Source: Nanobdellota archaeon
GTDB lineage: Archaea; Nanobdellota; Nanobdellia; Woesearchaeales; JACJVW01
DNA length: 48,942 bases
Assembly (NCBI GenBank): GCA_051819765.1
Contig: JBNJGT010000002.1
Span: forward strand, 1 to 48,942
Reading direction: 5' to 3'
Made by a program: the position numbers and the translations under genes
Notes under the pieces: model-generated
The model's input: the letters and a program-made list of their open reading frames with translations, nothing else
What the model was told of the DNA's origin: nothing
Databases searched by the model: none
Part shown: positions 22-48,942 of the stretch, piece by piece
Layout of the letters: every line of letters starts with the position of its first letter
How positions within the stretch are numbered: the stretch's first letter is position 1

Positions 22-29
22 TTTATAAA
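22..29 (+). promoter_or_regulatory. TATA box (TTTATAAA) of trpS
   Basis: AT octamer ends 24 nt before the ATG at 53. The same 22-25 nt spacing recurs at about 20 first genes in the window. Confidence 0.6.
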
Positions 30-1194: not shown

Positions 1195-3645
1195 ATGGCT
1201 GAACTCATCATTACAGAAAAGCCTAACGCAGCCCAGAAGGTTGCAACAGCCCTTGCTGATAATTCACCAAAGAAAGAGAACCATAACAAGGTTCCCTACT
1301 ACGTCCTGAAACACAACGGCAGGGATATAATCGTTGCCTGTGCTGTCGGTCATCTCTATACAGTGGGGGAGACACAAAAGACACCCTGGTCACGATACCC
1401 GGTCTTTGATGTAGCATGGGTCCCGACCGCAGACGTCGATAAGAGTGCTGACTATTCACGAAAGTATCTCAACACCTTGAAAAAGCTCTGCAAGCAGGCA
1501 GACTCATACACTGTTGCATGCGACTATGACATTGAAGGAGAAGTGATCGGCCTTAACGTGATCAAGGAGTGCTGCAAGGTAAAAGACGCCGCCCGGATGA
1601 AATTTTCGACCCTCACAAAACAGGACCTAGTCAAATCCTATGAGACCAAATCACCAACTCTTGACTGGGGGCTTGCGAACGCTGGAACCACCCGCCACAT
1701 CCTTGATTTCTATTACGGGATCAATGTCACCCGTGCCCTGACTCATGCGATCAATAAGGCAGCCGGGGGCTTCAAGGTCCTTTCAACCGGCCGTGTCCAG
1801 GGTCCGGCCTTGAAGATCATCGTTGACCGTGAAAAGGAGATCAAGGCATTCATTCCCGTACCCTTCTGGCAGATTGAGCTCACCGGTGACATCAAGGGAA
1901 ACGAGGTCAAGGGCCTGCATAAGGAAGACAAGTTCTGGGAGAAGGAGAAAGCAGACACTGTCATGCAGAATGTTGAAGGTCACAAGGAAGGCACCATCAG
2001 TGAGGTCACAAAAAAGCAGTTCAAGCAGAACCCACCATTCCCTTTCGATCTCACCAGCATGCAGCTGGAAGCCTATCGCTGTTTCAAGATACGACCAAAA
2101 GAGACCCTTGAGATCGCCCAACGCCTCTATACCGAAGGACTTATCTCATACCCCCGAACCTCTTCACAGAAACTTCCCCAACAGCTGGGGTTCAAGAACA
2201 TCCTCACCCATCTCAAGCGCCAGGAACACTACAAGGCTTTGGCTGAAAAGATACTCCAGACAAAACTTGTCCCAAACGAGGGTAAAAAGACCGATGATGC
2301 CCACCCTGCAATCTATCCCACAGGGCTTGCCCCTGACGAGACCAGTGAGCGCGATTACAAGATCTATGATCTCATTGTCAAGCGCTTCATGGCAGTCTTT
2401 GCAGAGCCTGCCACCCGTGAAACAAACACCCTGACAGTTGACGTGAACAAGGAGGAATTCATCACCAAGGGGACCGTCACCCTCGAGAAAGGCTGGCACG
2501 AGTTCTACGCGCCCTATGTCAAGATTGACGAGACAATCCTTCCCGTCGTCCAGAAGGGGGATGCAGTGAAAGTCGGTGATATCAGCTGCCTGGCAAAGGA
2601 GACAAAACCACCCAACAGGTACACCCAATCATCAATCATCCACGCCCTAGAAAAGAAGAACCTGGGAACCAAAGCCACACGGGCCCAGATCATCGAGACC
2701 CTTCTTCAGCGTGGATATGTCACCGGTGAATCCAACCTTGAAGCAACAGAGCTTGGCATAAAGACTGTCGAGACCCTGGAGAAATACTGCTCAGCGATCC
2801 TTGACGAGAAACTGACCCGCCAGTTTGAGGATGAGATGGACCTTATTCGGCAGAACAAGCACTCTCCTGAACAGGTGCTGGAAAAGGCGCAAAAACTGAT
2901 CACCAAGATAATCGAGGAATTCAAGAACCATGAGTCAAACCTCGGCGGTGAACTCTCAGAAGCAAACCATGAGGCAGTCCGCCAGGCAACAACCGTGGGA
3001 AAGTGTCCTAACTGTGAGGAAGGCGAGCTTGTCATCAGGAAAGGCAGATTCGGTCGCTTCATCGGATGCTCAAATTATCCCGACTGCAAGACAATCTATA
3101 ACCTCCCCAATGGCGGAACAGTCAAACCCACGGACAAGACCTGCGAATCATGCGGTATGCCGCTTGTCCAGATGCGCCAGCCTCGCCGGGGCCCCCAGGA
3201 GATCTGCATCAATCCTCACTGCCCGACAAAGGAAGAGAAAAAGCATTACCCCGAAGAAGGCATGCAATGCCCTGCCTGCAGTGAGGGGAAGATGATCCTT
3301 AGAAACGGCTTCTACGGCCAGTTCCTCGGATGTGACAATTACCCCAAGTGCAAGACCATGATGAAGATTGTGGAAGGAAAAGTGGACACCACACCCATAA
3401 CCGCAACCAACAAGGCCAAGAAATCAAAAAAGAAATCAACCAAGAATTCATCAACCAAATCCACAAAGAAAACCAAGAAATCAACCACCAAGAAAGCCGC
3501 ACCAAAGTCTGCAACAACAAAGACCACAAAGAAGGCAACCAAGAAGTCCACTGCAAAGTCCGCAACAACCAAAGCAAAGAAGAAGTCCACCAAGAAGGCA
3601 GCAACAAAGAAAACCAAGAAATCAACCCCAAAGAAAACACAGTGA
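1195..3645 (+). CDS. topA: DNA topoisomerase, type IA, with three C4 zinc ribbons and a Lys-rich tail
   Basis: Toprim N-terminus (ELIITEKPNAAQK, ACDYDIEGEVIG). Active-site Tyr motif LISYPRTSSQKL. Zn ribbons CPNC..CSNYPDC, CESC..CINPHC, CPAC..CDNYPKC. 78-aa K/T/S tail. Confidence 0.92.
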   Translation: MAELIITEKPNAAQKVATALADNSPKKENHNKVPYYVLKHNGRDIIVACAVGHLYTVGETQKTPWSRYPVFDVAWVPTADVDKSADYSRKYLNTLKKLCKQADSYTVACDYDIEGEVIGLNVIKECCKVKDAARMKFSTLTKQDLVKSYETKSPTLDWGLANAGTTRHILDFYYGINVTRALTHAINKAAGGFKVLSTGRVQGPALKIIVDREKEIKAFIPVPFWQIELTGDIKGNEVKGLHKEDKFWEKEKADTVMQNVEGHKEGTISEVTKKQFKQNPPFPFDLTSMQLEAYRCFKIRPKETLEIAQRLYTEGLISYPRTSSQKLPQQLGFKNILTHLKRQEHYKALAEKILQTKLVPNEGKKTDDAHPAIYPTGLAPDETSERDYKIYDLIVKRFMAVFAEPATRETNTLTVDVNKEEFITKGTVTLEKGWHEFYAPYVKIDETILPVVQKGDAVKVGDISCLAKETKPPNRYTQSSIIHALEKKNLGTKATRAQIIETLLQRGYVTGESNLEATELGIKTVETLEKYCSAILDEKLTRQFEDEMDLIRQNKHSPEQVLEKAQKLITKIIEEFKNHESNLGGELSEANHEAVRQATTVGKCPNCEEGELVIRKGRFGRFIGCSNYPDCKTIYNLPNGGTVKPTDKTCESCGMPLVQMRQPRRGPQEICINPHCPTKEEKKHYPEEGMQCPACSEGKMILRNGFYGQFLGCDNYPKCKTMMKIVEGKVDTTPITATNKAKKSKKKSTKNSSTKSTKKTKKSTTKKAAPKSATTKTTKKATKKSTAKSATTKAKKKSTKKAATKKTKKSTPKKTQ
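3409..3642 (+). repeat. Low-complexity coding repeat for the Lys/Thr/Ser-rich C-terminal tail of topA
   Basis: Tail runs NKAKKSKKKSTKNSSTKSTKK...KKSTPKKTQ. It contains an exact 24-nt direct repeat ACAAAGAAAACCAAGAAATCAACC at 3463-3486 and 3604-3627. Confidence 0.9.
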
Positions 3646-3710
3646 CACCTGAGATAAAATCTTTCTCCGTCAATCCCGCTTGCAAATCAGGGCCTGCGAG
3701 TTTTTCGCAT

Positions 3711-6272
3711 TCAATATCTCAACGGCAGTCGCACCTGTGTATCAGATGAATTACGCAATATCTGCTCCATATCTTTCGCACCAGCCCTTCCAGCCAGCAG
3801 TTTTTCAAGGGAGGCATCCCGGCGGGTAGCTTGCAAGGGAGGAAATATGAACCTCAGAAGTTCCCTGATTGTTCCCGTCCTTCCAAAGAATTTCTCCTGT
3901 AGTTCTTCATGGGTGTAGGTATAGGTGAAATGATCATCCTTTTGTACCCCGTGCTCACTCATCTTGCTGGTATACCGTTGGGTCGCATTGAGGGAATATT
4001 CATAGAAATGCCGCTTTGCTATCCGTGAAAATGAATATGCATCCGCCTTACTGGAATAGAATTCCTTGATCAGGTCATTGCAGTACTGCAGGAACGTCGA
4101 GACACTGGTATCACAGAGCACTCCGAATGCTTGCCTATAAAGGTCCTTTTCCAGCTCGCATCGCTCTCCCCGGTTTGAGGAGGGATCAGCGATCCCTTGC
4201 ATGATCAGTTCTGGGCCAATCTGCACACTGAACCTGCCTCTCTTTCCGGAGGCACACAACCCATCACCTAGATAGACCCCAAGCAGCTGGTCTTCCAGTC
4301 CCTCCAGCGTTTTGTCAAGTCCATCCTGTTTCGCAAGCACCAAAAATACCTTGTTGTGGTTAATGACTCGAGTATCAGACAATGCAGTTGCGATTCTTGA
4401 TATATTGTGCCAGACACGATTCTTATCATCCCGTGCCGCATTACCCTTGAAACCCCGCTCAAAGAATGCAGAGTAAGCGCGTTCATCACGGTCATCCTCG
4501 CAGCCGATAGCACGAAACAAGGGATATTCAAGCACTGATTCAAGGAACCGTGACATGCGGATCTTTTGCTTCTTATCATCTGTTGAAAGCAATAGGTCTA
4601 ATGTATCCTTCATGTAATATTCATGTAACGGCTGTTTGATTAAATCCTTGAAAGCACTCAGATAGGGCATTGGATGGAACAATGACACTGTATGGATCCC
4701 TCGTTTTGCTTTCATATCCAGGGATGTATGCTTCTTCAATACTGAAGTGAAAAAATCTCTTCCATCAAAATCATCGAATTTCACCTGTCTCATTCCCATA
4801 TCTTTCAGTTTTGATGTGACCCTGAGGCGCTCTTCTTTAAGAGGGTGTGGGTATGTCTTGACCCGCTTCATCCGCTGGTTCATCCAGTAATCAGAACAAA
4901 GGGTCTTATTGCCTGTAGAATCGATGCGTGCCGGAAGCGAGGAGTACAGATAGGAGAGTGCCAGGTGCTCGCGCTTGAGATCCTCGCCGATAAGATAGGA
5001 TTTCATGCTGTCCTCTGCCGCATATTCCAGAAGGATACGCGCCGACTCATGCTCTCCATCTTCCCCTTTCTGGGTCATCTCAGTGATCTGTGCATGGGTC
5101 AGAGTCTTTTCTTTGTATTTTCCAAAGAGATGCAAAAACACAGTATCAAGCTTGTTGTTGTAGTTCCACATTGCCTTGCGTGAGTACTGTGCAGGATCGA
5201 TGTCGATACGCCCTGGATTGATCCGCTGCTCGATGAACCCTCCCCCTATACCCGCCCGTCGCTCCGGCGCCCGCCCAGAGACACCGATGCCAAGGTTTCC
5301 CACCAGTTCCTGTGCTTTGCGGTAATCAAAGGTCATCTGATTATGCCCATACAAAAAAAGCGGGTTGAACTCAGCAATCAGCTCATTCATGACAGTGATC
5401 AACTCCTTCTGGTCACTAACCCTCACGATGGCCACATCATGGTATGAATCATCCAGTGGTGACTGCGCCCTGATACCCTCACAGCCCGCATCAAGGGTGG
5501 TGATGAGATAGTTGAATCCATGGTCAAGGGAGATCAGGCTTGCCGTGGTGATCCGCTCATCCCGGTGCTTGTTCTGAATCTCCTCCATCTTTCGGATGTA
5601 ATCCCCCCGGTCCATCCACTCTATATACTCAAGGCCCTCTTCATAGCGCTCTGCCATTGCAGCCATCTTCTGGTAAAGCTCCCCATCACTCAGATTCTCC
5701 AGTTCATCCTTCAGATAGAGACGCTCCCAGTTATGGGTCTCAAAATCGATCGCAAGACCCTTCTGGCAGGCAAGCTCTTCCAGGGAAACCCGCCCCCCGA
5801 CACCCTTTTTGGTGATGGTGAAGAAGGGGAATCCAAGGGCAAGCTCTGCCTGGCGCTGGTAGGAATTATGGGGTGAGTCCACCAGGAAATCCCTGGGAAT
5901 GAATGGTTTCTGAAGCTCCTTGTTCAGGAACGGTGCCACCAGGTGATACACCGAAGAATTCCGGGAGGGGAATGCCTCTTCAATTCGCACCTGGTTGTCC
6001 ATATCCGCCAAGAATCCAGTTATCAGCTCCTCCATCTCAGGATCAGCCCGTTGTAGCTTGTGCCGGTACTCGGCACGAAGGGCCTCCTTGTAGGGCTGTA
6101 AGGGGTCCGGCTTACTGGGAAGCCACGTGGTCGGGGTATGGTGGGGTCTGTACAGGGTACCCTCGTGATGCTCGCCTGTCTTGAGGTTCCATCCCATGAG
6201 TTCTATCTCAGACTGCAATCTACCCTTCTCCGTGGTAGCTGTCTTGAGGTAAGCCACAACGTAATCCACCAT
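3711..6272 (-). CDS. Family B DNA polymerase-like protein: exonuclease motifs intact, polymerase catalytic motifs apparently degenerate
   Basis: 853 aa. ExoI LAIDFETHNW, ExoII LYGHNQMTFDY and ExoIII LLEYAAEDSMKSY occur in PolB order. PolB-like linker SSLPARIDSTGNKTL..RMKRVKTYP. The expected motif A reads TVSLFHPMPYLSAF and the expected motif C reads GVYLGDGLCAS. Confidence 0.6.
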   Translation of the reverse strand: MVDYVVAYLKTATTEKGRLQSEIELMGWNLKTGEHHEGTLYRPHHTPTTWLPSKPDPLQPYKEALRAEYRHKLQRADPEMEELITGFLADMDNQVRIEEAFPSRNSSVYHLVAPFLNKELQKPFIPRDFLVDSPHNSYQRQAELALGFPFFTITKKGVGGRVSLEELACQKGLAIDFETHNWERLYLKDELENLSDGELYQKMAAMAERYEEGLEYIEWMDRGDYIRKMEEIQNKHRDERITTASLISLDHGFNYLITTLDAGCEGIRAQSPLDDSYHDVAIVRVSDQKELITVMNELIAEFNPLFLYGHNQMTFDYRKAQELVGNLGIGVSGRAPERRAGIGGGFIEQRINPGRIDIDPAQYSRKAMWNYNNKLDTVFLHLFGKYKEKTLTHAQITEMTQKGEDGEHESARILLEYAAEDSMKSYLIGEDLKREHLALSYLYSSLPARIDSTGNKTLCSDYWMNQRMKRVKTYPHPLKEERLRVTSKLKDMGMRQVKFDDFDGRDFFTSVLKKHTSLDMKAKRGIHTVSLFHPMPYLSAFKDLIKQPLHEYYMKDTLDLLLSTDDKKQKIRMSRFLESVLEYPLFRAIGCEDDRDERAYSAFFERGFKGNAARDDKNRVWHNISRIATALSDTRVINHNKVFLVLAKQDGLDKTLEGLEDQLLGVYLGDGLCASGKRGRFSVQIGPELIMQGIADPSSNRGERCELEKDLYRQAFGVLCDTSVSTFLQYCNDLIKEFYSSKADAYSFSRIAKRHFYEYSLNATQRYTSKMSEHGVQKDDHFTYTYTHEELQEKFFGRTGTIRELLRFIFPPLQATRRDASLEKLLAGRAGAKDMEQILRNSSDTQVRLPLRY

Positions 6273-6294
6273 TAAGTGGTGAATCTCGCCAAGA

Positions 6295-6302
6295 TTTATA
6301 AA
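6295..6302. promoter_or_regulatory. Palindromic TATA box (TTTATAAA) shared by divergent genes 3711-6272(-) and 6326-8443(+)
   Basis: Lies in a 53-bp spacer, 23 nt from the ATG at 6272 (minus strand) and 24 nt from the ATG at 6326 (plus strand). Confidence 0.6.
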
Positions 6303-6325
6303 TCTAGTGTGACTTTTCTCAGGCC

Positions 6326-8443
6326 ATGGAAGCTGACACCGCCTTCAGCGTCAGGCAGACTGGCGCGTTGCTCTACCTGTTCCAGCCCTACCTGGAATCC
6401 AGGGGTATCCATGCAGCCGATGACCTTCTCATGGCCATGAAGACAAATAATCATTTCTCACGACGCAAGCTGGCTCCCCACATCCAGGATGCCTTCGAGT
6501 CTTTGAACAAGTTCACCCGCTTCGAAAAGTTCAGGGAACGTGAAGAACTGATGCTCAAGGACGCCCACAAGATTGATCGAATCCCTATCCTGGTCAATGG
6601 CCTGTCCCTGGTGGATGATTACCGATTCAAGAAGGAAGGCATCGACCCCTATTCAGTCAATCATATATTCACTAACATACTTTTGGACCGCTTGCCAGAG
6701 CATGTCTCGGAAAACTGCCTGGATAACTTCGCTCTCCTTTACGTCCAGCCCATGACCTATGTACAGATACCCCTTCACGGCCGGCTTGAGGACATGCTCC
6801 TTCATACGGTGGATGACCGCTTCGGGTCGCACAGCAAATCAGGTGAACACTCACACCCTAATTCCTCCTATAACCCTCGCTTGCTGCGCACTGACCGCTA
6901 CCGTTCTGTTGAGGTGTATTGCAATCGCCAGCTCATGGCAATGAAGTATGCAATCCTCCTCGATGAAGCGCTTCCCCCAGTGATGCCGCGATTCCGGGAG
7001 CGTGGCATAAAAGAAGTCCCTCTCTACATGGAGAAAGGTGCTGACGCAACCGCAGTCATGCAGGCGGTCAACAACTACACCAAAAAGCCCATCCCCTTCT
7101 CTCACATAGGTCAAGGTATCATGACTGGCACCCAGAAATCCCCCTATGGCATCTGTGACCCTGCAGCTGTCGGTCGCCTCTTTGGGTTCATGATCAACGC
7201 CTGCAGGGAAGAGCGAAGCAGCATGCACAGCAGACCAAAACCGGGACCCCTTGAGTTCGAGCCGGGCAGGCACCGCTTTGATCTCATTGAAAAAGAGTGT
7301 GTGGGAAGGCACCCGAATCTTGAAGACCTCATCGACAGGCTCCGGGAGCAAGACGAGGAAGGCTATAGTGCAGCCAAAAACTTTGCCGATCTGTATGGCC
7401 TGGGATTCAAGCGCATAGAACCCCGCTTGGTCGAACTCTTCAGTTCACACACACCCGTCTACGATGATTTTCGTGCCCTTTCCAAGAAGACCTACCGGTG
7501 GCAGGACCTGCTCAAGAGTCGTCGTATACTTACACCTGACCAGGTTCCCGGCTTCTTTGAGATGCCAGTCATTTACCAGGGACAAGGCGATTTTCGCGGC
7601 TCCGAGTTCAGCCTCAGTTCAAACCCTCACTTTGACACCAGGTGGCTTACCGCCTACCACCAGGGTGAACTGGATGTGGGCTGCAGCATCGAGAAGGTGC
7701 TCTCCGCAATGCCAAGAGAACAGTTCCTCACCATATTGAAGGAAAACGCACCCGAGGATTCTCTGATCTGGGCTCACTACGACCCTGAGACCATGACACC
7801 CATCCCTGCCATACGGGGAAGCTTCATACATGCCATCTCATCTGATCCCTTGGAAGGCCTTGCCCACTACCAGACTTTGAAAGCGGCAGGCATCACCCCT
7901 ACCCCGTCTGACCATTACACCGAGACTCCCTTCTATCAGGAGCATGACGGGATTTCCCTCTCCTATCACCCTGACTGTTACCTCTTTCTTCAACGAAGTG
8001 ACAGCACATATGACCTCCTCATCCTTGATACCAAGACCAATCGCGTCACCCCCTATCCTGAACATAAGTACCTGCTCCAGACTTTTTTCTATGGCTGGGC
8101 AATCAAGCAGTCAGTTGAGACCCACCTTGACACCAGAGTGCATGATATCTATTCAGTCCTCAACAAGTGCGCCTTCTACCGGGGGTTCAACGGTGAAAAG
8201 CCCGATCATACCCTGAGCCATCGCCCCCAGAAGTACGCCCCCATCACGCGCTTTGACTCATCCCACTTCTTCCATCGTGCCATGCCTGATATGATCCGCA
8301 TCATCACAGAGGAAAAGGACCGGCTACGGACAGAGAAGGACTACTTCCAGCACTATAAGCGGCACTGCAGCTGCACCTGCTTCGAGAGTAACCGTATCGT
8401 ATGTGACTATCTTGCCACCTCAGATCCCCGTGCCCTTCTGTAA
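6326..8443 (+). CDS. Large uncharacterised protein with a C-terminal RecB/Cas4-like PD-(D/E)xK nuclease domain and Cys cluster
   Basis: 705 aa. C-terminal motifs HPDCYLFL (Asp), LLILDTKTN (D-x-K) and LLQTFFYGW (QxxxY), then HCSCTCFESNRIVC as possible Fe-S ligands. I recognise nothing in the first ~550 aa. Confidence 0.6.
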   Translation: MEADTAFSVRQTGALLYLFQPYLESRGIHAADDLLMAMKTNNHFSRRKLAPHIQDAFESLNKFTRFEKFREREELMLKDAHKIDRIPILVNGLSLVDDYRFKKEGIDPYSVNHIFTNILLDRLPEHVSENCLDNFALLYVQPMTYVQIPLHGRLEDMLLHTVDDRFGSHSKSGEHSHPNSSYNPRLLRTDRYRSVEVYCNRQLMAMKYAILLDEALPPVMPRFRERGIKEVPLYMEKGADATAVMQAVNNYTKKPIPFSHIGQGIMTGTQKSPYGICDPAAVGRLFGFMINACREERSSMHSRPKPGPLEFEPGRHRFDLIEKECVGRHPNLEDLIDRLREQDEEGYSAAKNFADLYGLGFKRIEPRLVELFSSHTPVYDDFRALSKKTYRWQDLLKSRRILTPDQVPGFFEMPVIYQGQGDFRGSEFSLSSNPHFDTRWLTAYHQGELDVGCSIEKVLSAMPREQFLTILKENAPEDSLIWAHYDPETMTPIPAIRGSFIHAISSDPLEGLAHYQTLKAAGITPTPSDHYTETPFYQEHDGISLSYHPDCYLFLQRSDSTYDLLILDTKTNRVTPYPEHKYLLQTFFYGWAIKQSVETHLDTRVHDIYSVLNKCAFYRGFNGEKPDHTLSHRPQKYAPITRFDSSHFFHRAMPDMIRIITEEKDRLRTEKDYFQHYKRHCSCTCFESNRIVCDYLATSDPRALL

Positions 8444-8521
8444 CCACCAATTTTATAAACTCTCAGGTATTTTAACACAAAATCAGGCACAGCCTGAATA
8501 TGAATTAGGTGGAAATAAGAA

Positions 8522-15221: not shown

Positions 15222-15926
15222 ATGCCTGAAACTGATGGACAACTACAGACACGCATCCCTGGACTTGATGATTTCTTTCAGGGCGGGATTCCCCTAGGTT
15301 CATCCATACTCCTCATCGCGCCCCCTATCATTGAGGCACGCCTTTTTTGCCTTGATTTCCTCAATAAGGGGCTCGAAAATGGTGAGGCGGCGTTGATGCT
15401 CACTACCGATGATTCTCCTGAGAACCTACGCAGCAAGGCCGGTGAGGGTTTTTCCAAGGCAGAAGAGGAGAACCGTATGTTCTGGGTTGATGCCTATTCC
15501 ATCAACGCGAACAAGGATGTGCAGGACACCCAAAGCATCAAGCGGATCGGTGGCCCTGTTGCATTATCAGACATGGCAATCGCATTGTCCAATGTACAGA
15601 TAGCATTCAACAAGCAGAATTACTCTTCCTTCAGGTTTGTATTTGACTCTCTCTCAACCTTGCTCATGTACAGCAGTCCTGACACTGTATACTACTTTTT
15701 GCAGTCAGTGATTCCCAAATTGAGCCGTGCAGGGGGTGTCGGACTGTTTGTCCTTGCAAGCGGCATGCATGACCCTCGCGTTGAAATGACTGTCCGCCAT
15801 CTCATGGGTGGTGCACTCCAGCTTGACGATGACCTTAACCTCAAGATCCTCAATTTCCCCAAAGTTCTCACAAAAAAGGATGCTCACTTGACCTTTGCTG
15901 ATAACACGTTCAGCGTGGACCGATAA
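15222..15926 (+). CDS. KaiC/RecA-superfamily protein lacking a Walker A motif (probable pseudo-ATPase)
   Basis: IPGLDDFFQGGIPLGSSILLIAPPIIEARLFCLDFL aligns with the KaiC-like N-terminus of the next-but-one gene. GxxGxGK[ST] is replaced by APPIIEAR, while a Walker-B-like FRFVFDS is kept. Confidence 0.7.
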   Translation: MPETDGQLQTRIPGLDDFFQGGIPLGSSILLIAPPIIEARLFCLDFLNKGLENGEAALMLTTDDSPENLRSKAGEGFSKAEEENRMFWVDAYSINANKDVQDTQSIKRIGGPVALSDMAIALSNVQIAFNKQNYSSFRFVFDSLSTLLMYSSPDTVYYFLQSVIPKLSRAGGVGLFVLASGMHDPRVEMTVRHLMGGALQLDDDLNLKILNFPKVLTKKDAHLTFADNTFSVDR

Positions 15927-15958: not shown

Positions 15959-16438
15959 ATGGATAAAAAAGGGATGTCTCCGCTGCTTGCAACATTGCTT
16001 CTTATCGCCTTTGCCATCTCTCTGGGGATCCTTGTCATGAGTCTTGGCCAGCAGATGCGTCAAAATAGTGGCCATGGTAATGTGAACATGTCCAAGGTAT
16101 GCAGTCAGGTCTCCTTTGAGGTTGTCTCGGTTGGCGGGCTGAGTTCCTTATGCTATGACAAGGAGGCCAAACAACTATCCTTGATTGGTGTCAACAGGGG
16201 TGCTCCGATCCATTCAATGCAGGTCTGGGTCATCGGAAAGCGCCTCTACAAGGCAGAACTTCTTGATGATCCCCTGCCAAAGGGAATGACTGTTGAACGG
16301 CAGATTCCCTATGATGCGTCCCAGTACGGCACCATTGACAAAATCAAGCTTATCCCTCGCATCCAGGATCTGACTATGGATGATCCGGTGTTTTGCGTGG
16401 ATTATCCAATTGAAGTGAATCAAGTACCGACGTGTTAA
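15959..16438 (+). CDS. Archaeal type IV pilin-like protein (class III signal peptide)
   Basis: N-terminus MDKKGMSPLLATLLLIAFAISLGILVMSL has a basic stretch, Gly, then a hydrophobic helix, as in archaeal pilin/archaellin-type signal peptides. Confidence 0.65.
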   Translation: MDKKGMSPLLATLLLIAFAISLGILVMSLGQQMRQNSGHGNVNMSKVCSQVSFEVVSVGGLSSLCYDKEAKQLSLIGVNRGAPIHSMQVWVIGKRLYKAELLDDPLPKGMTVERQIPYDASQYGTIDKIKLIPRIQDLTMDDPVFCVDYPIEVNQVPTC

Positions 16439-16440
16439 CA

Positions 16441-17208
16441 ATGGGTTTTGGACCAGAAGGACAATCGACACAACCACCCACCGATCCCTCGAATAGTTAT
16501 ATCACCAGGGTCCCCTCCGGCATCCATGGGCTTGATAATCTCATTGAAGGAGGCATCCCCAAAAGCTCAGCCACCCTGGTGAGCGGTACTCCCGGCAGCG
16601 GGAAGAGCACATTCGGCCTGCAATTCCTTGCCAATGGTGCATTGAAATACGGTGAGCGCGGGATCTACATCACTCTTGAAGAGGATGTTGACAGCCTGAT
16701 CCTCCAGGCAAAACGCTACGGGTTTGATCTGCAAAAGCTGATTGATGAGGGCATGCTCCTCATGCTCAAGCTCGAGGTGGATTACACCCAGGGTGAAGAG
16801 GCTATCCTCAAGATAATTGACAAGGCTTTTTTAAACGAGATCAGGTCCTTCGGTGCACAGCGCATGTGTCTTGACTCTATCTCTCTTGTGTTGCATCTCT
16901 CCCACAGCAAGTATGGTGATCGGGGCGCGACCGCAGAACTCATCAAGCACATGAAACAACTCAAGCTTACAACCCTTCTCCTGCATGAACGTGAGCAGGG
17001 TCAGATGTCAGAGATCACGTACAGTTTTTATGACTTTGTCTGCGACGGGACAATCTACCTGCAGATGATACGAAGAAAGGATGCGGCAGAATTTTTCCGT
17101 GCCCTCACTGTCCTCAAGATGCGAAAGACCAACCACCAGAAAGGGGTGTATCCGGTTCACCTCGAACCCACTGGCTTTAAGGTCTACGAAAACCAGAAAG
17201 TCTTCTAG
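16441..17208 (+). CDS. KaiC-like RecA-superfamily ATPase (intact P-loop)
   Basis: [36 protein letters not shown], with Walker B in [11 protein letters not shown] at 16441 lies 3 nt after the pilin stop; a GTG at 16432 is an alternative start. Confidence 0.8.
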
Positions 17209-18636: not shown

Positions 18637-19638
18637 TTAATATATCTTTCTCTTAGACATCTTTCTAAGGTCTCTTTCAAGAAATTCCCTTACCTTTCCT
18701 TTTAAATCCTCGTCACAATCGATCTCTTTTACCTTCTCTTCCCAGTTGATATCCGGTATCCTTGTCAATGATCCATTGAACTCCCTTCCTGCATCAGCAA
18801 CCAGCTTTTCTATCATTCTGGCCTGTTCAGTATTGAACTTATTGATTGCCGGAAATTTGGTTATTCCATTTGCACCTGCTCTGAGGATAAGGTTTGTGTA
18901 GTCCACCTTTTTTGGGGTAAGTCCCGCCATAATCTTCAGTTTCGGAAATCTTATCCTTGTATTGGCAATCCACCATGCATAATCATTTGGTTCCGGACTT
19001 CTTGTAAAAGGGGTGCCTTTTACAGGTTTTAGTGCATAGAATGTTATCCTTTCAAGATCATTTTTTTCGATAAGTTCTGCAAGCACCTCAAAATCCTCTC
19101 TTTTCTCCCCAAGCCCTATTACTATTGTCATTGCAGTCTTGAATCCCATGTCTTGTGCATAGCCAAGCATCTCTGTATAAGGCTCGATTGGCTTGTCAGG
19201 GCATATTTCATCATGCAGATTCTGTTCAGCAGTCTCTATGGATGCACAAACTCCCTCTACATAAGGCTTTAATTGCTCAAGTTCTTCAGGCTTAAGGGCC
19301 CCCAGGTTGATCCAGATCTTTTTACCGTATGCCTCAGAGACCCATTTCGTGAATTGCACAATCTTTTCAAAGTCAAATATTCCATAGCCTCCTGTCAGGA
19401 ATTCAATATCCCATCCCAGATTACTCCCGATTATTGCATCTGTTATGACTGAGGCATCACTTCTCCTTGCCTTTGATGCATGTCTTATCTGGTGGCTTGT
19501 TGTTGACCTGAAACAGAACTTGCAAGTCCCGAGCTCACAATACCAACTAAGAAAAATGCATCTGCCGAACCAGGCATCTCTTCCGAATTCTTCAAGATGG
19601 ATTCTGTTTGCCTTTTCAATAAGCTCCATTGTTCTCAT
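18637..19638 (-). CDS. Radical SAM protein (BioB/HydE-like size) with CX4CX2C cluster motif
   Basis: [18 protein letters not shown] was verified at nucleotide level (tgt gag ctc ggg act tgc aag ttc tgt). SD AAGGAGGG lies 9 nt upstream of the ATG. Sits 22 nt upstream of ahcY. Confidence 0.7.
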
Positions 19639-19694
19639 CGAATCAATCCCTCCTTTAAATTATTTTGTAAGGTTTTTATAAGTGTTCCAAAAAC

Positions 19695-19702
19695 TTATTT
19701 AA
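19695..19702 (+). promoter_or_regulatory. TATA box (TTATTTAA)
   Basis: 24 nt upstream of the ATG at 19726. Confidence 0.55.
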
Positions 19703-19725
19703 GCAGACCTTTCTTAGCTTTTGTG

Positions 19726-21528
19726 ATGGCAATAGAGTACATCCCCGTTCTCCGGGCCTTCAACGACCTGCCCTTCAATGTCGGAAAGAAGCTTCTCATC
19801 GACTATCTCCGGGGTGCTGAGAACAATCCTTCAATCAAGAAGAACCGGCTGGACAAGCGCAGGACCTTTGGCTATTTCGAGCTCTACCAGCCCCAAGAGA
19901 TCGAGGAGATAATCGATCTGCTTCTCAAGCACAGGCTCCTCGAAGTGACAACCATCGAAGGGACCCATTACCGCGTGCTCACTCGTTCCAAGAAGGGGGA
20001 TTACGAGCTGGTTGACCCAAAGATGGCAGAGACCCTCAATAAGAAACCCGAGCGTCTCCCCACCTACACCACGACCATCACTGATGCCGAGCGCCAGGCA
20101 TTCCAGGCACTCGGCCCCTATCTCTCCTATTACAATGATTCTCAAAAAAAAGCAATCATCTGCAACGCGAAAAATATCCTCTGCATCGCCGGTGCAGGGA
20201 CCGGGAAGACGACTGTCCTCACACGCCGCATCGACTTCCTCATGAAGTATCGCTCGGTTGAGCCCCGAAAGGTCCTTGCCATAACCTTCACTCGAAAAGC
20301 CCGTGAAGAGATGCAACAACGGGTTGGTTCTGATAAGATTGCTATCCACACCTTCAATTCCTTCTGCGAGAAATACCTTTCCACCTTCGAGGATGTGGTC
20401 TACAAGAAAAAGACTGCGGTCGCGACCTTCAAGGATAAGATCAAGCTCATGACTCGTGCCCTGCAAAAGCAAAACCTTACCATGGATCAGGCCTTGCACA
20501 AGTATTTCAGCAAGGCAAAGCTCAAGCAGGGAAAAGACAAGCTCTCCTTCATGTTCCTCAACGACTGCTTATCTGTCATCGACCTGTGCAAGCTTGAAGA
20601 CCTCAAGTTCGAGGATTTCCACCAGCAGGAGTATGCCTTCATGATGCCTCTATGCCGGGAGATGTACGAATCCATGCAAAAACGCGGCCTTCGCGATTAC
20701 ACTGATCAGCTCCTGGACTGTATCAACTTCTTCAAGCAATACCCCTCTTATATCCCGAGATTCGACCACATCCTGGTTGATGAGTTCCAGGACGTCAACT
20801 CCCAGCAGATCGAGTTGCTGGATCTCCTAAAATCCCAAAACCTTTTCTGTGTGGGCGATCCCCGGCAATCCATCTACGGCTGGCGCGGCTCAAAGATAAA
20901 GTATATCCTTGAGTTCCCCCAACGGTATCAGGGAGCGGAGGTCATCAGTCTCACTGACAACTACCGCTCGGCTGAAAAAATCGTGAACGCGATAAACGCC
21001 GCGATCAAGCCCATGGGGCTTCCTGATCTGAAGAGCACAAAACCGGGCGGGCTTACTACCATCAAAAAGTTTGATTCTCAGGAAGAGGAATTCGATTTTG
21101 CGATCAAGACACTCTTGCAGAAGGCCTGTCCCCGAAACCAGATCTTCATCCTGGCAAGAACAAACAAGCAACTAAAGGATTTATCCGATTACCTGAAACA
21201 GCGAAACATCAAGCATCTTCTCAAGTCGGAAGACGGAAACGAGGTGCCTTTGCCAGATCAGGTGGTCCTCTCTACTGTCCATGCAATCAAAGGGCTTGAA
21301 GCAGAGGTGGTCTTTGCGATCGGCTGCAGTTTTCTCAACTATCCCTGTAAGGCCTCAGACCATCCAGTACTGGACGCAATCAAGGTTGAGGATTATGACA
21401 AGGAAGAGGAAGAACGTCGCCTGCTGTACGTGGCTCTCAGCCGGGCCCATCGTGAGCTCTATGTCACCTACACCGGCCAGAAGGCCCGCTTTATAACAGC
21501 GAATGTCCAGAAACTACTTAAGGGATGA
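19726..21528 (+). CDS. UvrD/PcrA-like superfamily 1 helicase with N-terminal RQC-like winged-helix segment
   Basis: LCIAGAGTGKTTVL (Walker A), HILVDEFQDVN (motif II), CVGDPRQSIYGWRGS, STVHAIKGLEAEVVF and LLYVALSRAHRELYV. The N-terminus FNVGKKLLIDYLRGAENNPSIKKNRLDKRRTFGYF resembles the RecQ RQC region. Confidence 0.8.
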   Translation: MAIEYIPVLRAFNDLPFNVGKKLLIDYLRGAENNPSIKKNRLDKRRTFGYFELYQPQEIEEIIDLLLKHRLLEVTTIEGTHYRVLTRSKKGDYELVDPKMAETLNKKPERLPTYTTTITDAERQAFQALGPYLSYYNDSQKKAIICNAKNILCIAGAGTGKTTVLTRRIDFLMKYRSVEPRKVLAITFTRKAREEMQQRVGSDKIAIHTFNSFCEKYLSTFEDVVYKKKTAVATFKDKIKLMTRALQKQNLTMDQALHKYFSKAKLKQGKDKLSFMFLNDCLSVIDLCKLEDLKFEDFHQQEYAFMMPLCREMYESMQKRGLRDYTDQLLDCINFFKQYPSYIPRFDHILVDEFQDVNSQQIELLDLLKSQNLFCVGDPRQSIYGWRGSKIKYILEFPQRYQGAEVISLTDNYRSAEKIVNAINAAIKPMGLPDLKSTKPGGLTTIKKFDSQEEEFDFAIKTLLQKACPRNQIFILARTNKQLKDLSDYLKQRNIKHLLKSEDGNEVPLPDQVVLSTVHAIKGLEAEVVFAIGCSFLNYPCKASDHPVLDAIKVEDYDKEEEERRLLYVALSRAHRELYVTYTGQKARFITANVQKLLKG

Positions 21529-27616: not shown

Positions 27617-27697
27617 GTCTATCACCTCATGAGCAATAAGGTCCTTCTTTTATAAATACCCTGTGAAGGAATTCTCTAGGTCTGCCATTCACAAGTT

Positions 27698-46399: not shown

Positions 46400-47476
46400 T
46401 TATTTAAAGCTTTTCATGAGGTCATCGAGTTCCGACGTGATCTTCGCCTCGAAATCAGCGACCTTCATATCCCCTCGCTCCGCAGAGAGGGCCTGCATCA
46501 TGCTCTTTACAAGATCATAATTCTCTCCGATGAGCTCTCGCTCGATCTCAGGCACTGACGCCTCGGTGTGAGCCTCCTCCAGGCGCTCACTGAAAAGCTT
46601 TGAGGTATTTTTCATCACGAACAATGCGTTTCTGGAGTAGAAATGTGAATACATTCGCTTGTGGTTGATCTCAGAGGTCTTACCTTTCATGGCACCAAAA
46701 AGCCGCACCGTGACGACTGTGTTGGAGTAGTCTCCCTCCTGGCACATCTCTTTTTCGATCTCTTCAGCATCCAGGCCTTCACAATCGACCATGACGGGGT
46801 GAACCCTACACACCTGGACCGGCACGAAGGTCGTTGTTCCATCCTCATAGCGGTAGTATCCTCCTCCCTGAAGCAATTCAACCTCCCGGAAATTGTTCGG
46901 GAACAACGGTCCCGGGTAGACGATGTGCTTGTCACCAGTGAATTCCCCTGGTTGATGGATATGTCCTCCTCCATAATACATGAATCCCTTCGGAAGGTCT
47001 TCTACACTAAGCTCCGAGAAATCATGGTACTCTTTAAGGCCGGAATGGAAAAGAAAGATCTTTCGCTCTGCGTCAGCCTGAAATGACCAGAAAAGCTCCT
47101 TGTCAAGACCTCCGCGGAGCCCCTGGATTCCTGCAATCAAGGTATCATCATGCCACACAGGTGTCTGTGAAACATTATGCGCAAGCCCTGCAACATCCAA
47201 CAGGTCAAGCATGGTCTTGCCTGTGGGTGAGTAATCATGGCTTCCCGGGATGAGATACACTGGAATGCCTCTCTGTTTCAATTGTTGAAAAGAAGAAAAG
47301 ACGAACTTGAGCGTGTCAAGGGTCGGTACCGCGGTGTTGAACAGGTCACCGCTGATAATAAGAAAATCCACGTCGCAGTCCGCAATCACCTGGGAGAAGG
47401 CCTGGCGGTTCAGGTCCCGCATAGTGGGGTCCCGCCACGCCCCTAGGTGGCAGTCTGCGATATGGATGAATCTCAT
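46400..47476 (-). CDS. Mre11/SbcD-like calcineurin-fold metallophosphoesterase
   Basis: MRFIHIADCHLG, LIISGDLFN, YLIPGSHDYSP (GSHD instead of GNHD) and GGGHIHQPG. ATGA overlap with the dnaG stop. No Rad50 gene is adjacent. Confidence 0.7.
   Translation of the reverse strand: MRFIHIADCHLGAWRDPTMRDLNRQAFSQVIADCDVDFLIISGDLFNTAVPTLDTLKFVFSSFQQLKQRGIPVYLIPGSHDYSPTGKTMLDLLDVAGLAHNVSQTPVWHDDTLIAGIQGLRGGLDKELFWSFQADAERKIFLFHSGLKEYHDFSELSVEDLPKGFMYYGGGHIHQPGEFTGDKHIVYPGPLFPNNFREVELLQGGGYYRYEDGTTTFVPVQVCRVHPVMVDCEGLDAEEIEKEMCQEGDYSNTVVTVRLFGAMKGKTSEINHKRMYSHFYSRNALFVMKNTSKLFSERLEEAHTEASVPEIERELIGENYDLVKSMMQALSAERGDMKVADFEAKITSELDDLMKSFK
46401..46408 (-). promoter_or_regulatory. TATA box (TTTAAATA on minus strand) of the cyclase gene, overlapping the stop of the upstream gene
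   Basis: 23 nt upstream of the ATG at 46378. Confidence 0.5.
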
Positions 47477-48684: not shown

Positions 48685-48942
48685 AGTATGACCTCCTTTC
48701 TGCTTTTGTTGGTCAGCCAAATAGAACTCTCTACCAATACTCTACAGTATGTGATGAAGTGAGTGGTAAATGGCTGGTAAGGGTTGGTGCCCGTCTTACT
48801 AACTCCCAAGCTCATAGCTTGACTTTGTCGTGAGCTTACTTGAGTACTCTCGTAACGGGCTGTAATCTGCAAGGGTGGCTCAAAATCAAGGCCAAAACAT
48901 CCGTTTCAGCTCATTTAAGGACCCATTTGCACATTTTACTAC

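What the first reader, a model, noticed from the sequence alone, without database searches (positions are those of the whole stretch)
3711..8443. Divergent two-gene module: PolB-like protein with intact exonuclease but degenerate polymerase motifs, plus a 705-aa protein ending in a Cas4/RecB-type nuclease
Seen in sequence:
- ORF 3711-6272(-) carries the three DEDD proofreading motifs in PolB order (ExoI LAIDFETHNW, ExoII LYGHNQMTFDY, ExoIII LLEYAAEDSMKSY) and a PolB-like linker (SSLPARIDSTGNKTL..RMKRVKTYP).
- Where motif A (DxxSLYPS) and motif C (YGDTDS) are expected, it reads TVSLFHPMPYLSAF and GVYLGDGLCAS. By my alignment most catalytic Asp are gone.
- The divergent 705-aa neighbour ends in a RecB/Cas4-order PD-(D/E)xK set (HPDCYLFL, LLILDTKTN, LLQTFFYGW) followed by a Cys cluster HCSCTCFESNRIVC, which resembles Cas4 Fe-S ligands. 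Its first ~550 aa match nothing I recognise.
- Both ATGs lie 23-24 nt from one palindromic TATA box (TTTATAAA, 6295-6302) in a 53-bp spacer. This suggests co-regulated leaderless transcripts.

Established knowledge: inactivated PolB paralogues occur in archaea, and Cas4-like nucleases travel with PolB in casposons and archaeal viruses. No Cas1, integrase or terminal repeat is visible here.

Inference: this is an exonuclease/nuclease pair for DNA end processing, repair or defence that does not match a named system.
Basis: partly seen in the sequence, partly recalled or inferred. Interest (0 to 1): 0.8.

Follow-up and report, generated by a model that had tools for sequence, protein, structure and literature searches.

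The report
Polymerase-dead PolB exonuclease with Cas4-like partner
A small group of tiny archaea (Woesearchaeota) always keeps two head-to-head genes together: a DNA polymerase relative that has lost its copying site but kept its proofreading nuclease, and a new protein ending in a Cas4-type iron-sulfur nuclease. Together they look like an undescribed two-part DNA-trimming machine.

Summary
ORF 3711-6272(-) adopts a full-length family-B polymerase fold (AF2 pLDDT 87; Foldseek E 1e-17 to Thermococcales PolB). All five DEDDy exonuclease residues are invariant in 15/15 homologues. The motif A, B and C polymerase residues are absent in the window protein and not conserved in the family. The conclusion that the catalytic aspartates are gone is still right.

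ORF 6326-8443(+) ends in a RecB/Cas4-type PD-(D/E)xK nuclease. H502/D550/D568/K570/Q585/Y589 are conserved in 42/42 sequences. Four Cys are all-or-none (37 with all four, 5 with none). Its first ~445 aa match nothing known.

The two genes are adjacent and divergent in 12 of 12 informative Woesearchaeota loci, at 26-63% identity, and no third gene is conserved. In 6-7 loci a single palindromic TATA box lies 21-27 nt from both start codons.

There is no sign of a virus, casposon or defence system, and the flanking genes are housekeeping genes. The best reading is a chromosomal, vertically inherited two-subunit nuclease acting on DNA 3' ends or junctions. The pathway is not established. I rate it a new variant of known kinds, with interest about 0.62.

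The parts
3711..6272 (-). PolB-like protein, 853 aa (P0001). Full family-B polymerase fold with a live exonuclease site and a dead polymerase site.
   Evidence: ORF. AF2 pLDDT 87, pTM 0.86. Foldseek matches Thermococcales PolB at E 1e-17 over ~880-950 aligned columns and E. coli Pol II at E 1.6e-15.
4953..5777 (-). 3'-5' exonuclease domain (aa 166-440). ExoI is at 5727-5753, ExoII at 5322-5351 and ExoIII at 4998-5030. A family-specific ~55-aa helical insert follows ExoI.
   Evidence: D176, E178, D316, Y417 and D421 are invariant in 15/15. PF03104 is hit by 9/15 members. This is the most conserved domain, with mean pairwise identity 0.46.
3843..4835 (-). Palm, fingers and thumb region (aa 480-810) without catalytic residues. 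Motif A equivalent is at 4650-4700, motif B equivalent at 4515-4559, motif C equivalent at 4332-4367 and KxY equivalent (GKRGRFSV) at 4224-4247.
   Evidence: hhalign and hmmsearch against KOD PolB. Column residues: the motif A Asp position is variable and non-acidic, and the motif C second-Asp position is V in the window and E/D in only 7/14. PF00136 is hit by 0/15. The region is still constrained, with identity 0.31-0.38 and pLDDT above 90.
3714..3842 (-). C-terminal tail ending in QVRLPLRY, a possible clamp-binding short motif.
   Evidence: LxLF-like motifs recur in the tails of most family members. The pLDDT is below 50 at aa 843-853. This is inference only.
6273..6325 (.). 53-bp divergent spacer with a single palindromic TATA box (TTTATAAA, 6295-6302) placed for leaderless transcripts in both directions.
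   Evidence: Sequence. The box lies 21-27 nt from both start codons in WIN, L004, L005, L007, L008 and L013. The octamer is enriched 4 against 0.44 expected, and a copy also lies 23 nt before the TrpRS ATG.
6326..7660 (+). Partner protein, N-terminal region (aa 1-445). It has no recognisable family. Conserved motifs are IPILVNG, GIDPYS, PLYMEK, HPN, RIEPRxVEL and FRGSEF.
   Evidence: No Pfam, NCBIfam, PDB-sequence or Foldseek match. No Walker A motif. It is conserved across 42 sequences.
7661..8443 (+). Partner protein, C-terminal Cas4/RecB-type PD-(D/E)xK nuclease (aa 446-705 plus stop). Features are C453, GxxxH502, D550, D568-x-K570, Q585xxxY589 and C681/C685/C693.
   Evidence: Foldseek matches Cas4-family ACE1 9iab (E 2.7e-3, prob 0.97), SSO0001 Cas4, type I-C Cas4, AddB/AdnAB and Exo5, and viral RecB/Cas4-like nucleases. 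PDDEXK_1 is hit weakly by 10/42 members and above the curated threshold by the stand-alone relatives P0089 and P0093. The catalytic set is present in 42/42 and the four Cys are all-or-none, 37/5.

Best explanation
The two genes encode the subunits of a chromosomal, vertically inherited DNA-processing nuclease. It is confined, as far as sampled, to one clade of Woesearchaeota (DPANN archaea).

Subunit 1 is a family-B DNA polymerase paralogue. It has lost nucleotide-addition chemistry: the motif A and C carboxylates and the motif B dNTP-binding residues are gone. It keeps the whole fold, a KxY-like primer-binding strand, the thumb, and a fully intact DEDDy 3'-5' exonuclease site. It therefore most likely binds primer-template or duplex-end DNA as a polymerase does in editing mode and only removes nucleotides from 3' ends.

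Subunit 2 carries a Cas4/RecB-type PD-(D/E)xK nuclease stapled by a four-Cys (probably 4Fe-4S) cluster. In characterised relatives this kind of nuclease cuts 5' single-stranded ends or flaps. It is fused to a ~445-aa domain of unknown fold, which I infer to be the docking or DNA-handling module.

Both genes are fired as leaderless transcripts from one shared palindromic TATA box, so they are made together.

Shown here: the fold, the state of the active sites, strict gene pairing, co-divergence, the shared promoter element, and the housekeeping context. Inferred: a physical complex, the enzymatic polarities, and the substrate (DNA ends, flaps or mispaired 3' termini during repair or replication).
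For: PolB fold. Exo residues invariant in 15/15, and the exo domain is the most conserved part. Polymerase motifs absent or unconserved, and PF00136 hit by 0/15. The polymerase-like region is still constrained. Partner nuclease. Catalytic HDDKQY in 42/42 and the four Cys all-or-none. Pairing in 12/12 loci, always divergent. No third conserved gene. Divergence of the two proteins correlated (Pearson 0.99, Spearman 0.91). Shared TATA box 21-27 nt from both ATGs in 6-7 loci. Housekeeping flanks (Topo IA, TrpRS, eIF2-gamma, S6e, L13/S9). No viral relatives, defence-model hits, TIRs or tRNA genes.
Against: No direct evidence that the two proteins bind each other; the co-fold was not run. No biochemical data. 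The partner model has only moderate confidence (pLDDT 69, pTM 0.49), and its Foldseek E-values are weak (about 1e-3). Seven of 14 family members keep an E/D at the position of the second motif C Asp, so residual or unusual catalysis in some members cannot be strictly excluded. The motif A mapping rests on sequence pattern plus predicted secondary structure, not on a superposition I could inspect. The window also encodes an Mre11/SbcD-like protein, so the pair is not an obvious replacement for a missing end-resection nuclease.
Confidence: 0.6

Rival explanations
1. It is simply the organism's fast-evolving but functional family-B DNA polymerase (replicative or repair). The neighbour is an accessory nuclease subunit, and catalysis uses non-canonical residues.
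For: The full PolB fold, including palm, fingers and thumb, is retained at high confidence. A KxY-like motif and thumb motifs are conserved. A clamp-binding-like tail motif is present. Half of the family keeps E/D at the second motif C Asp position. PolB2 and piPolB show that a reduced motif C can still be active (PMC7544198).
Against: The window protein has V at the motif C second-Asp position and no acidic residue at the motif A position. Neither position is conserved in the family. The motif B Lys, Asn and Tyr equivalents are E, E and L. The Pfam polymerase model hits 0/15 members. No invariant acidic residue exists anywhere in aa 480-810.
Confidence: 0.1
2. It is an anti-virus or anti-plasmid defence module: nucleases that degrade foreign DNA ends, analogous to RecBCD/AddAB-type or Cas4-associated functions.
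For: It is a two-nuclease pair of narrow phyletic distribution. Cas4-family nucleases occur in CRISPR adaptation and in Argonaute-associated ACE1, which is the top Foldseek hit. The pair sits in different genomic neighbourhoods in different lineages.
Against: No PADLOC hit. No cas genes, Argonaute, toxin or other defence gene is conserved nearby; one locus has an unrelated MazEF pair about 5 kb away. The flanks are core translation and replication genes. There is one copy per locus, and the co-divergence looks vertical. There is no compositional anomaly.
Confidence: 0.1
3. It is a domesticated remnant of a self-replicating mobile element, such as a casposon or an archaeal virus or plasmid that carried PolB plus a Cas4-like nuclease, and it now has little or no function.
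For: PolB plus Cas4-like nuclease is a gene combination seen in casposons and archaeal viruses (established knowledge; PMC4046053 listed). Minor archaeal PolB groups are thought to derive from mobile elements (PMC7544198).
Against: There is no Cas1, integrase, TIR or tRNA target. No relatives occur on 2.9 million viral contigs. Both proteins are under clear purifying selection, with invariant active sites down to 18-30% identity, which rules out a decaying remnant. An ancient mobile-element origin is not excluded, but it would not change the present function.
Confidence: 0.05
4. The PolB-like protein is mainly a non-catalytic scaffold, like the inactive C-terminal half of eukaryotic Pol epsilon. 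It would organise a replisome or repair complex, with the Cas4-like protein as the only working nuclease.
For: Inactivated PolB modules with structural roles are known (Pol epsilon C-terminal half; PMC2669801). The polymerase-like region is conserved without catalytic residues.
Against: All five exonuclease catalytic residues are invariant, and the exo domain is the most conserved part. In Pol epsilon C-terminal half and in PolB2 the exo site is degenerate (PMC7544198).
Confidence: 0.1

Closest known systems
Archaeal family-B DNA polymerases of the B1/B3 type (Thermococcales Pfu, KOD and Tgo PolB) and E. coli Pol II
   Same: The overall five-domain fold is the same (Foldseek E 1e-17 to 1e-15). 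The DEDDy ExoI-III motifs are the same. A KxY-like strand and the thumb segment are alignable.
   Different: The motif A and C carboxylates and the motif B K/N/Y are absent. The Pfam polymerase-domain model does not detect it. It has a ~55-aa helical insert after ExoI and an insert in the N-terminal domain. It has an obligate divergent partner gene.
Inactivated PolB paralogues: archaeal PolB2 (Dpo2) and the C-terminal half of eukaryotic Pol epsilon
   Same: They are PolB-fold proteins with degenerate polymerase motifs that are kept under selection.
   Different: The pattern of loss is the reverse. PolB2 has lost ExoI and ExoIII conservation but keeps one motif C Asp and is an active translesion extender. 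The Pol epsilon C-terminal half has lost both sites (PMC7544198; PMC8764526 abstract). Here the exonuclease is fully intact and the polymerase site is gone.
Cas4-family and RecB-family Fe-S nucleases (Cas4 SSO0001, type I-C Cas4, Argonaute-associated ACE1, AddB/AdnAB nuclease domains, Exo5, Dna2 nuclease domain)
   Same: The motifs have the same order, GxxxH ... D ... DxK ... QxxxY. One Cys precedes and three Cys follow the nuclease core.
   Different: The nuclease is fused to a ~445-aa N-terminal region with no detectable relatives. There is no helicase or ATPase motor. It is not linked to cas1/cas2, Argonaute or CRISPR. It does not reach the Pfam thresholds for PDDEXK_1 or Cas_Cas4.
Casposons and archaeal viruses or plasmids that encode PolB together with a Cas4-like nuclease
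   Same: They share the gene combination of PolB plus a Cas4-like nuclease.
   Different: There is no Cas1 casposase, no terminal inverted repeats and no protein-primed PolB features. There are no viral-contig relatives, and the context is chromosomal housekeeping genes.
Prespacer trimming in CRISPR adaptation: a DnaQ-like DEDD exonuclease plus Cas4
   Same: This is a functional analogy only. A DEDD 3'-5' exonuclease and a Cas4 nuclease act together on DNA ends (established knowledge, from memory).
   Different: The exonuclease there has the DnaQ fold (DEDDh), not a PolB. It needs Cas1-Cas2, which is absent here.

Membership tests
Family B DNA polymerase (as a fold/superfamily) | N-terminal, exonuclease, palm, fingers and thumb architecture | tested here: met
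   AF2 pLDDT 87. Foldseek full-length matches to more than 200 PolB chains at E <= 1e-3, best 9.4e-18.
Family B DNA polymerase (as a fold/superfamily) | ExoI (DxE), ExoII (Nx2-3FD) and ExoIII (Yx3D) proofreading motifs | tested here: met
   D176/E178, N311/F315/D316 and Y417/D421 align to the KOD/Pfu motifs. The catalytic residues are invariant in 15/15.
Family B DNA polymerase (as an active polymerase) | Motif A DxxSLYPS with the catalytic Asp | tested here: not met
   The equivalent segment is G525-F541. The Asp-equivalent column (533/534) is H/A/S/Y/D/E/V or P/V/F/L/C/I, so it is not conserved. The mapping uses sequence pattern and predicted secondary structure.
Family B DNA polymerase (as an active polymerase) | Motif C (Y)xDTD(S/G) with catalytic Asp residues | tested here: not met
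   KOD VIYSDTDGFF aligns to VINH-NKVFL. The second-Asp column reads V N N E E E E E N Q N D N D, and the first-Asp column has no acidic consensus.
Family B DNA polymerase (as an active polymerase) | Motif B KxxxNSxYG (dNTP binding) | tested here: not met
   It aligns to LESVLEYPLF. The K, N and Y equivalents are E578, E582 and L585.
Family B DNA polymerase (as an active polymerase) | Match to the Pfam DNA_pol_B model (PF00136) | tested here: not met
   0 of 15 members at E <= 0.1. PF03104 (exo) is hit by 9 of 15.
Archaeal PolB2 (inactivated/TLS group B2) | ExoI not conserved, ExoIII missing, one conserved motif C Asp and a group-specific D(K/R) motif (PMC7544198) | tested here: not met
   The Exo motifs are all intact here, and there is no conserved motif C Asp.
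Cas4 / RecB-family PD-(D/E)xK nuclease | GxxxH, D, (D/E)xK and QxxxY motifs in that order | tested here: met
   H502, D550, D568, K570, Q585 and Y589 are present in 42/42 sequences.
Cas4 / RecB-family PD-(D/E)xK nuclease | Four Cys (one N-terminal and three C-terminal to the core) that ligate an Fe-S cluster | tested here: met
   C453, C681, C685 and C693 are present together in 37/42 and lost together in 5/42. Actual Fe-S binding cannot be tested with these tools.
Cas4 / RecB-family PD-(D/E)xK nuclease | Structural or profile similarity above accepted thresholds | tested here: inconclusive
   Foldseek gives prob 0.97 but E 2.7e-3 on a model with pLDDT 69. PDDEXK_1 scores 13.4 bits against a cut-off of 22 for the window protein. 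Two stand-alone relatives pass the cut-off.
CRISPR-associated Cas4 (functional membership) | Genomic linkage to cas1/cas2 or a CRISPR array | tested here: not met
   No third conserved gene in 12 loci. No repeat array near the pair.
Casposon | Cas1-family casposase and terminal inverted repeats flanking a PolB | tested here: not met
   No conserved neighbour. No flanking inverted repeats. No relatives on viral or mobile-element contigs.
AddAB/AdnAB/RecBCD-type helicase-nuclease | SF1 helicase motor domains fused to, or partnered with, the nuclease | tested here: not met
   No helicase or ATPase Pfam domain at E <= 1. No Walker A motif in 7 partner or 2 PolB-like sequences. Foldseek alignments to AddA/AdnA chains have probability of only 0.06-0.33.
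Known anti-phage defence systems (PADLOC-DB 2.0) | Match to any defence-protein model | tested here: not met
   0 families for both proteins at E <= 1.

The most novel reading that the evidence does not exclude
The pair is a previously unrecognised, clamp-tethered heterodimeric DNA-end editing enzyme of DPANN archaea. A polymerase-dead PolB acts as a stand-alone 3'-5' proofreader or resection exonuclease. It is coupled through a new ~445-aa domain to an Fe-S Cas4-like 5' nuclease. Such an enzyme could process both strands of a DNA end or flap without any helicase motor. It would be a minimal alternative to Mre11-Rad50/HerA-NurA or to Dna2/Fen1-type processing in reduced genomes. It would also be the first case of a family-B polymerase evolved into a dedicated exonuclease subunit.
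Probability: 0.3. Interest if true: 0.75.

Novelty: new variant of a known kind. Interest (0 to 1): 0.62.

Why it matters
Inactivated family-B polymerases are central to ideas about how replication machines evolve, for example PolB2 and the C-terminal half of Pol epsilon. All described cases have lost the exonuclease, or both activities. This family shows the opposite path. Polymerase chemistry is discarded, while the proofreading site and the DNA-binding scaffold are kept, and the gene is locked to a Cas4-type Fe-S nuclease that carries a large domain of unknown fold.

If the two proteins act as a complex, the pair would define a new motor-less DNA-end or 3'-terminus processing enzyme in genome-reduced DPANN archaea. 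It would give a function to proteins that NCBI names only as hypothetical. It would also provide a natural exo-only PolB scaffold for studying editing-mode DNA binding. The conserved single-TATA bidirectional leaderless promoter is a compact example of co-regulation in archaea.

Tried and rejected
1. Sequence-profile identification of the partner's N-terminal ~445 aa gave nothing. I tried Pfam, NCBIfam, PDB phmmer, a 42-sequence profile against PDB sequences, and Foldseek against PDB and BFVD. Short proteins that match only this region also have no Pfam domain.
2. A second word-index homologue search with the family profile added no new members.
3. hhalign in default local mode aligned only the exonuclease region. 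A greedy alignment was needed for the palm, and that part is of low confidence.
4. I tried to learn from Kazlauskas et al. 2020 whether Woesearchaeota carry other PolB or PolD genes, and whether this family is one of their groups B4-B10. The text mentions B7 and one B9 member in Woesearchaeota. The stored supplement (cut when stored) contains neither RLE45733 nor any Woesearchaeota row. P0006 is RLE45733.1, not the B9 example RLE38063.
5. Mobile-element, casposon and virus origin was rejected.
6. A known defence system was rejected at the level of PADLOC models.
7. A helicase-nuclease of the AddAB type was rejected.
8. The idea that the pair replaces a missing Mre11 is weakened by an Mre11/SbcD-like gene in the same window.
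Full report
**1. What is there**

The window is a 48.9-kb contig. By its closest homologues it comes from a Woesearchaeota (DPANN) archaeon. The two ORFs are real and divergent: 3711-6272(-), 853 aa, and 6326-8443(+), 705 aa, separated by 53 bp. The flanking genes are housekeeping genes: TrpRS, topoisomerase IA with a lysine-rich tail, a TRAM-domain protein and ABC-transporter permeases. The rest of the contig encodes AdoHcy hydrolase, a UvrD/PcrA-like helicase, RLI/ABCE1, RtcB, GatA/GatB, DnaG primase, an Mre11/SbcD-like phosphoesterase and others. Base composition is unremarkable across the pair.

**2. The PolB-like protein**

Sequence searches see only the exonuclease part:
- Pfam DNA_pol_B_exo1 at E 0.012, below threshold.
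- NCBIfam Pol II models at E 2e-4.
- phmmer against PDB sequences at E 2.5e-5, to Thermococcales PolB.

With a 15-sequence family alignment the AF2 model is confident (pLDDT 87, pTM 0.86). Foldseek aligns it end to end with Thermococcales PolB (best E 9.4e-18, ~880-950 columns) and with E. coli Pol II (1.6e-15). It is therefore a complete family-B polymerase fold.

The family profile aligns two segments to KOD-type PolB in PDB sequences. One is the exonuclease region. The other is a thumb segment: KOD 619-679 against the family's FEK..FY...R.AKRD..DYS. That anchor, together with a greedy hhalign, gives this mapping:

| KOD PolB | Window protein |
|---|---|
| KxY motif KKKYAV | GKRGRFSV (aa 676-683) |
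| Motif C VIYSDTDGFF | VINH-NKVFL (aa 636-645) |
| Motif B KILANSYYGY | LESVLEYPLF |
| Motif A | G525-F541, a strand followed by a helix in the model |

It is verified where it overlaps the alignments. The palm part of the hhalign alignment is of low confidence.

Column counts across the family:
- D176, E178, D316, Y417 and D421 are invariant in 15/15.
- The motif A Asp position is variable and essentially non-acidic.
- The second motif C Asp position reads V N N E E E E E N Q N D N D. It is V in the window protein.
- The motif B K, N and Y equivalents are E, E and L.

No acidic residue is invariant anywhere in aa 480-810. Pfam's polymerase-domain model hits 0 of 15 members, and the exo model hits 9 of 15. 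The polymerase-like region is nevertheless maintained. Its mean pairwise identity is 0.31-0.38, against 0.46 for the exo domain and 0.30 for the N-terminal domain, and most of it has pLDDT above 90. The selected functions are therefore the exonuclease and, by inference, DNA binding by the palm and thumb. Synthesis is not selected.

**3. The partner**

The window protein gives only a sub-threshold PDDEXK_1 hit. An exhaustive HMMER search of 1.84 billion cluster representatives finds just 98 relatives, 51 of them below E 1e-30. In a 42-sequence alignment that reaches down to 18% identity, H502, D568, K570 and Q585 are invariant, and D550 and Y589 nearly so. Read per sequence, the six-residue set H-D-D-K-Q-Y is present in all 42. 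This is the RecB/Cas4 motif set GxxxH, D, DxK and QxxxY.

Four cysteines (C453, C681, C685, C693) are present together in 37 sequences and absent together in 5. This all-or-none pattern is what a single metal-cluster ligand set would give. The topology, one Cys before and three after the core, is that of the Cas4, AddB, Dna2 and Exo5 Fe-S nucleases.

The AF2 model is only moderate (pLDDT 69, pTM 0.49). Its sole structural matches are these:
- Cas4-family ACE1, SSO0001 Cas4, type I-C Cas4, AddB/AdnAB and Exo5 in the PDB.
- RecB/Cas4-like nucleases of viruses.

Two stand-alone relatives of the C-terminal domain pass Pfam's curated PDDEXK_1 cut-off.

The first ~445 residues have no detectable relatives by any method tried. 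They have no Walker A motif. They do carry strongly conserved motifs: GIDPYS, PLYMEK, HPN, RIEPRxVEL and FRGSEF.

**4. The pairing**

NCBI locus tags are consecutive in three MAGs. A scan of 185,579 GTDB species genomes returned 13 loci. By record title, nine are Woesearchaeota MAGs and four are TPA bins labelled 'uncultured Methanosarcinales'. In all 12 loci with enough flanking DNA the partner gene lies immediately upstream and divergent. PolB-like identity is 29-54% and partner identity is 26-63%. The thirteenth locus is a 1.9-kb contig. A 34%-identical homologue found by exact-protein look-up shows the same arrangement with a 53-bp spacer.

Divergence of the two proteins across loci is tightly correlated (Pearson 0.99, Spearman 0.91). 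No third gene is conserved. Neighbours differ between lineages and are housekeeping genes such as eIF2-gamma, S6e, L13/S9, Topo IA and TrpRS.

**5. The promoter**

TTTATAAA (6295-6302) lies 22 nt from the PolB-like ATG and 23 nt from the partner ATG. The octamer occurs 4 times in the window against 0.44 expected. One copy lies 23 nt upstream of the TrpRS ATG, so it behaves as this organism's TATA consensus with leaderless spacing.

A single (A)TTTATAAA(TC) box lies 21-27 nt from both start codons in the window and in L004, L005, L007 (TTTAAAAA), L008 and L013. In L009 the start codon is ambiguous. Protein identity among these loci is only ~30-60%. More distant loci (L011, L012) have 170-185-bp spacers. 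That archaeal TATA boxes are centred about 26 nt upstream of the transcription start is established knowledge. Co-expression from one bidirectional box is inference.

**6. What it is not**

- Not a virus, plasmid or casposon. There are no relatives among 2.9 million viral contigs, no Cas1, integrase or TIR, and no tRNA genes.
- Not a catalogued defence system.
- Not an AddAB-type helicase-nuclease.
- Not PolB2 and not Pol-epsilon-C-like. Those have degenerate exonuclease sites (PMC7544198).
- Not identifiable with the PolB groups named for Woesearchaeota in Kazlauskas et al. 2020, which are B7 (Pol II-like) and one B9 sequence. I could not examine their full tables.

**7. Mechanism proposed**

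The most economical reading is a two-subunit nuclease. The PolB-like subunit binds a primer-template junction or duplex end as a polymerase does in editing mode, and it degrades the 3' strand. The partner's Cas4-like domain cuts 5' single-stranded DNA or flaps. The unknown N-terminal domain mediates assembly or DNA handling. Short LxLF-type motifs in the disordered tails, including the C-terminal QVRLPLRY here, hint at recruitment by the sliding clamp. That hint is untested.

The pathway is not determined. Double-strand-break end resection, removal of mispaired or blocked 3' ends, and flap processing at the fork are all possible. The contig also encodes an Mre11/SbcD-like protein and a UvrD-like helicase, so the pair is not simply filling an obvious gap.

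**8. Verdict**

The finding is a new variant of known kinds, an exo-only PolB locked to a Cas4-type nuclease that carries a novel domain. Interest is about 0.62.

Noticed in passing
window 3415-3648 (3' end of the topoisomerase IA gene, 1195-3645 +): The Topo IA gene ends in a ~75-aa lysine/threonine/serine/alanine-rich tail (KKSTKK-like). It is encoded by degenerate direct repeats, 8 copies in register with 15-48 nt spacing. The tail looks like a histone-H1-like or other low-complexity DNA-binding extension.
   Followed up: no
window 22-29, 8452-8459 and 27649-27656: There are three further exact TTTATAAA boxes, 4 in the window against 0.44 expected. The one at 22-29 lies 23 nt before the TrpRS ATG, which suggests leaderless transcription is common in this organism. 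The one at 8452-8459 lies just after the partner's stop codon and 62 nt before the TRAM-domain gene.
   Followed up: partly
window 46400-47491(-) and 47473-48720(-): An Mre11/SbcD-like calcineurin-type phosphoesterase (NCBIfam Mre11 models at E 3e-25, far below their cut-offs) overlaps by 19 nt the end of a DnaG-type primase gene (E 1e-145). No Rad50-like gene is adjacent; the next gene is a 450-aa protein with only weak hits.
   Followed up: partly
window 19597-21528(+): A UvrD/PcrA-type SF1 helicase with an N-terminal RQC-like winged-helix domain, which is an unusual fusion. It lies 11 kb from the nuclease pair and is not conserved next to it in other loci.
   Followed up: no
PolB-like family tails: window 3714-3737 (QVRLPLRY), and P0004-P0008, P0011, P0013, P0015: A short (Q)xxL(P/S)LF-like motif recurs in disordered inserts or at the C-terminus. 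Examples are RQLSLFDD, DLPLFS, ELPLFE and NLPLLF. It resembles clamp-binding peptides: PIP-like, and the bacterial beta-clamp motif QL[SD]LF. No statistics or binding test were done.
   Followed up: partly
PolB-like aa 183-238 (window about 5559-5726) and aa 58-95: These are family-specific helical insertions. One of ~55 aa directly follows ExoI, and one is in the N-terminal domain. Both are absent from KOD/Pfu PolB and are candidate partner-docking surfaces.
   Followed up: no
PolB-like family alignment A1, column of window residue 642: The position equivalent to the second motif C Asp is E/D in 7 of 14 members. It is V/N/Q in the window clade and others. This suggests stepwise decay of the polymerase site within the family rather than a single ancestral loss.
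   Followed up: partly
loci L005, L010, L011 and L014: GTDB/TPA records titled 'uncultured Methanosarcinales archaeon' carry the Woesearchaeota-type pair, up to 63% identical to the window. These are probably mislabelled bins. L014 also has a run of N inside the spacer.
   Followed up: no
partner-family search results P0080, P0104, P0112, P0114, P0115 (~320 aa) and P0086, P0089, P0093, P0108 (~330-370 aa): There are proteins that match only the N-terminal part (profile positions ~44-345) or only the C-terminal nuclease of the partner. The two halves may therefore also exist as separate genes or as gene fragments. Their genomic context could not be retrieved with the tools allowed.
   Followed up: partly
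window 15222-15926(+) and 16432-17208(+): Two KaiC/RadA-like single-domain ATPases lie close together, with a 159-aa ORF between them.
   Followed up: no
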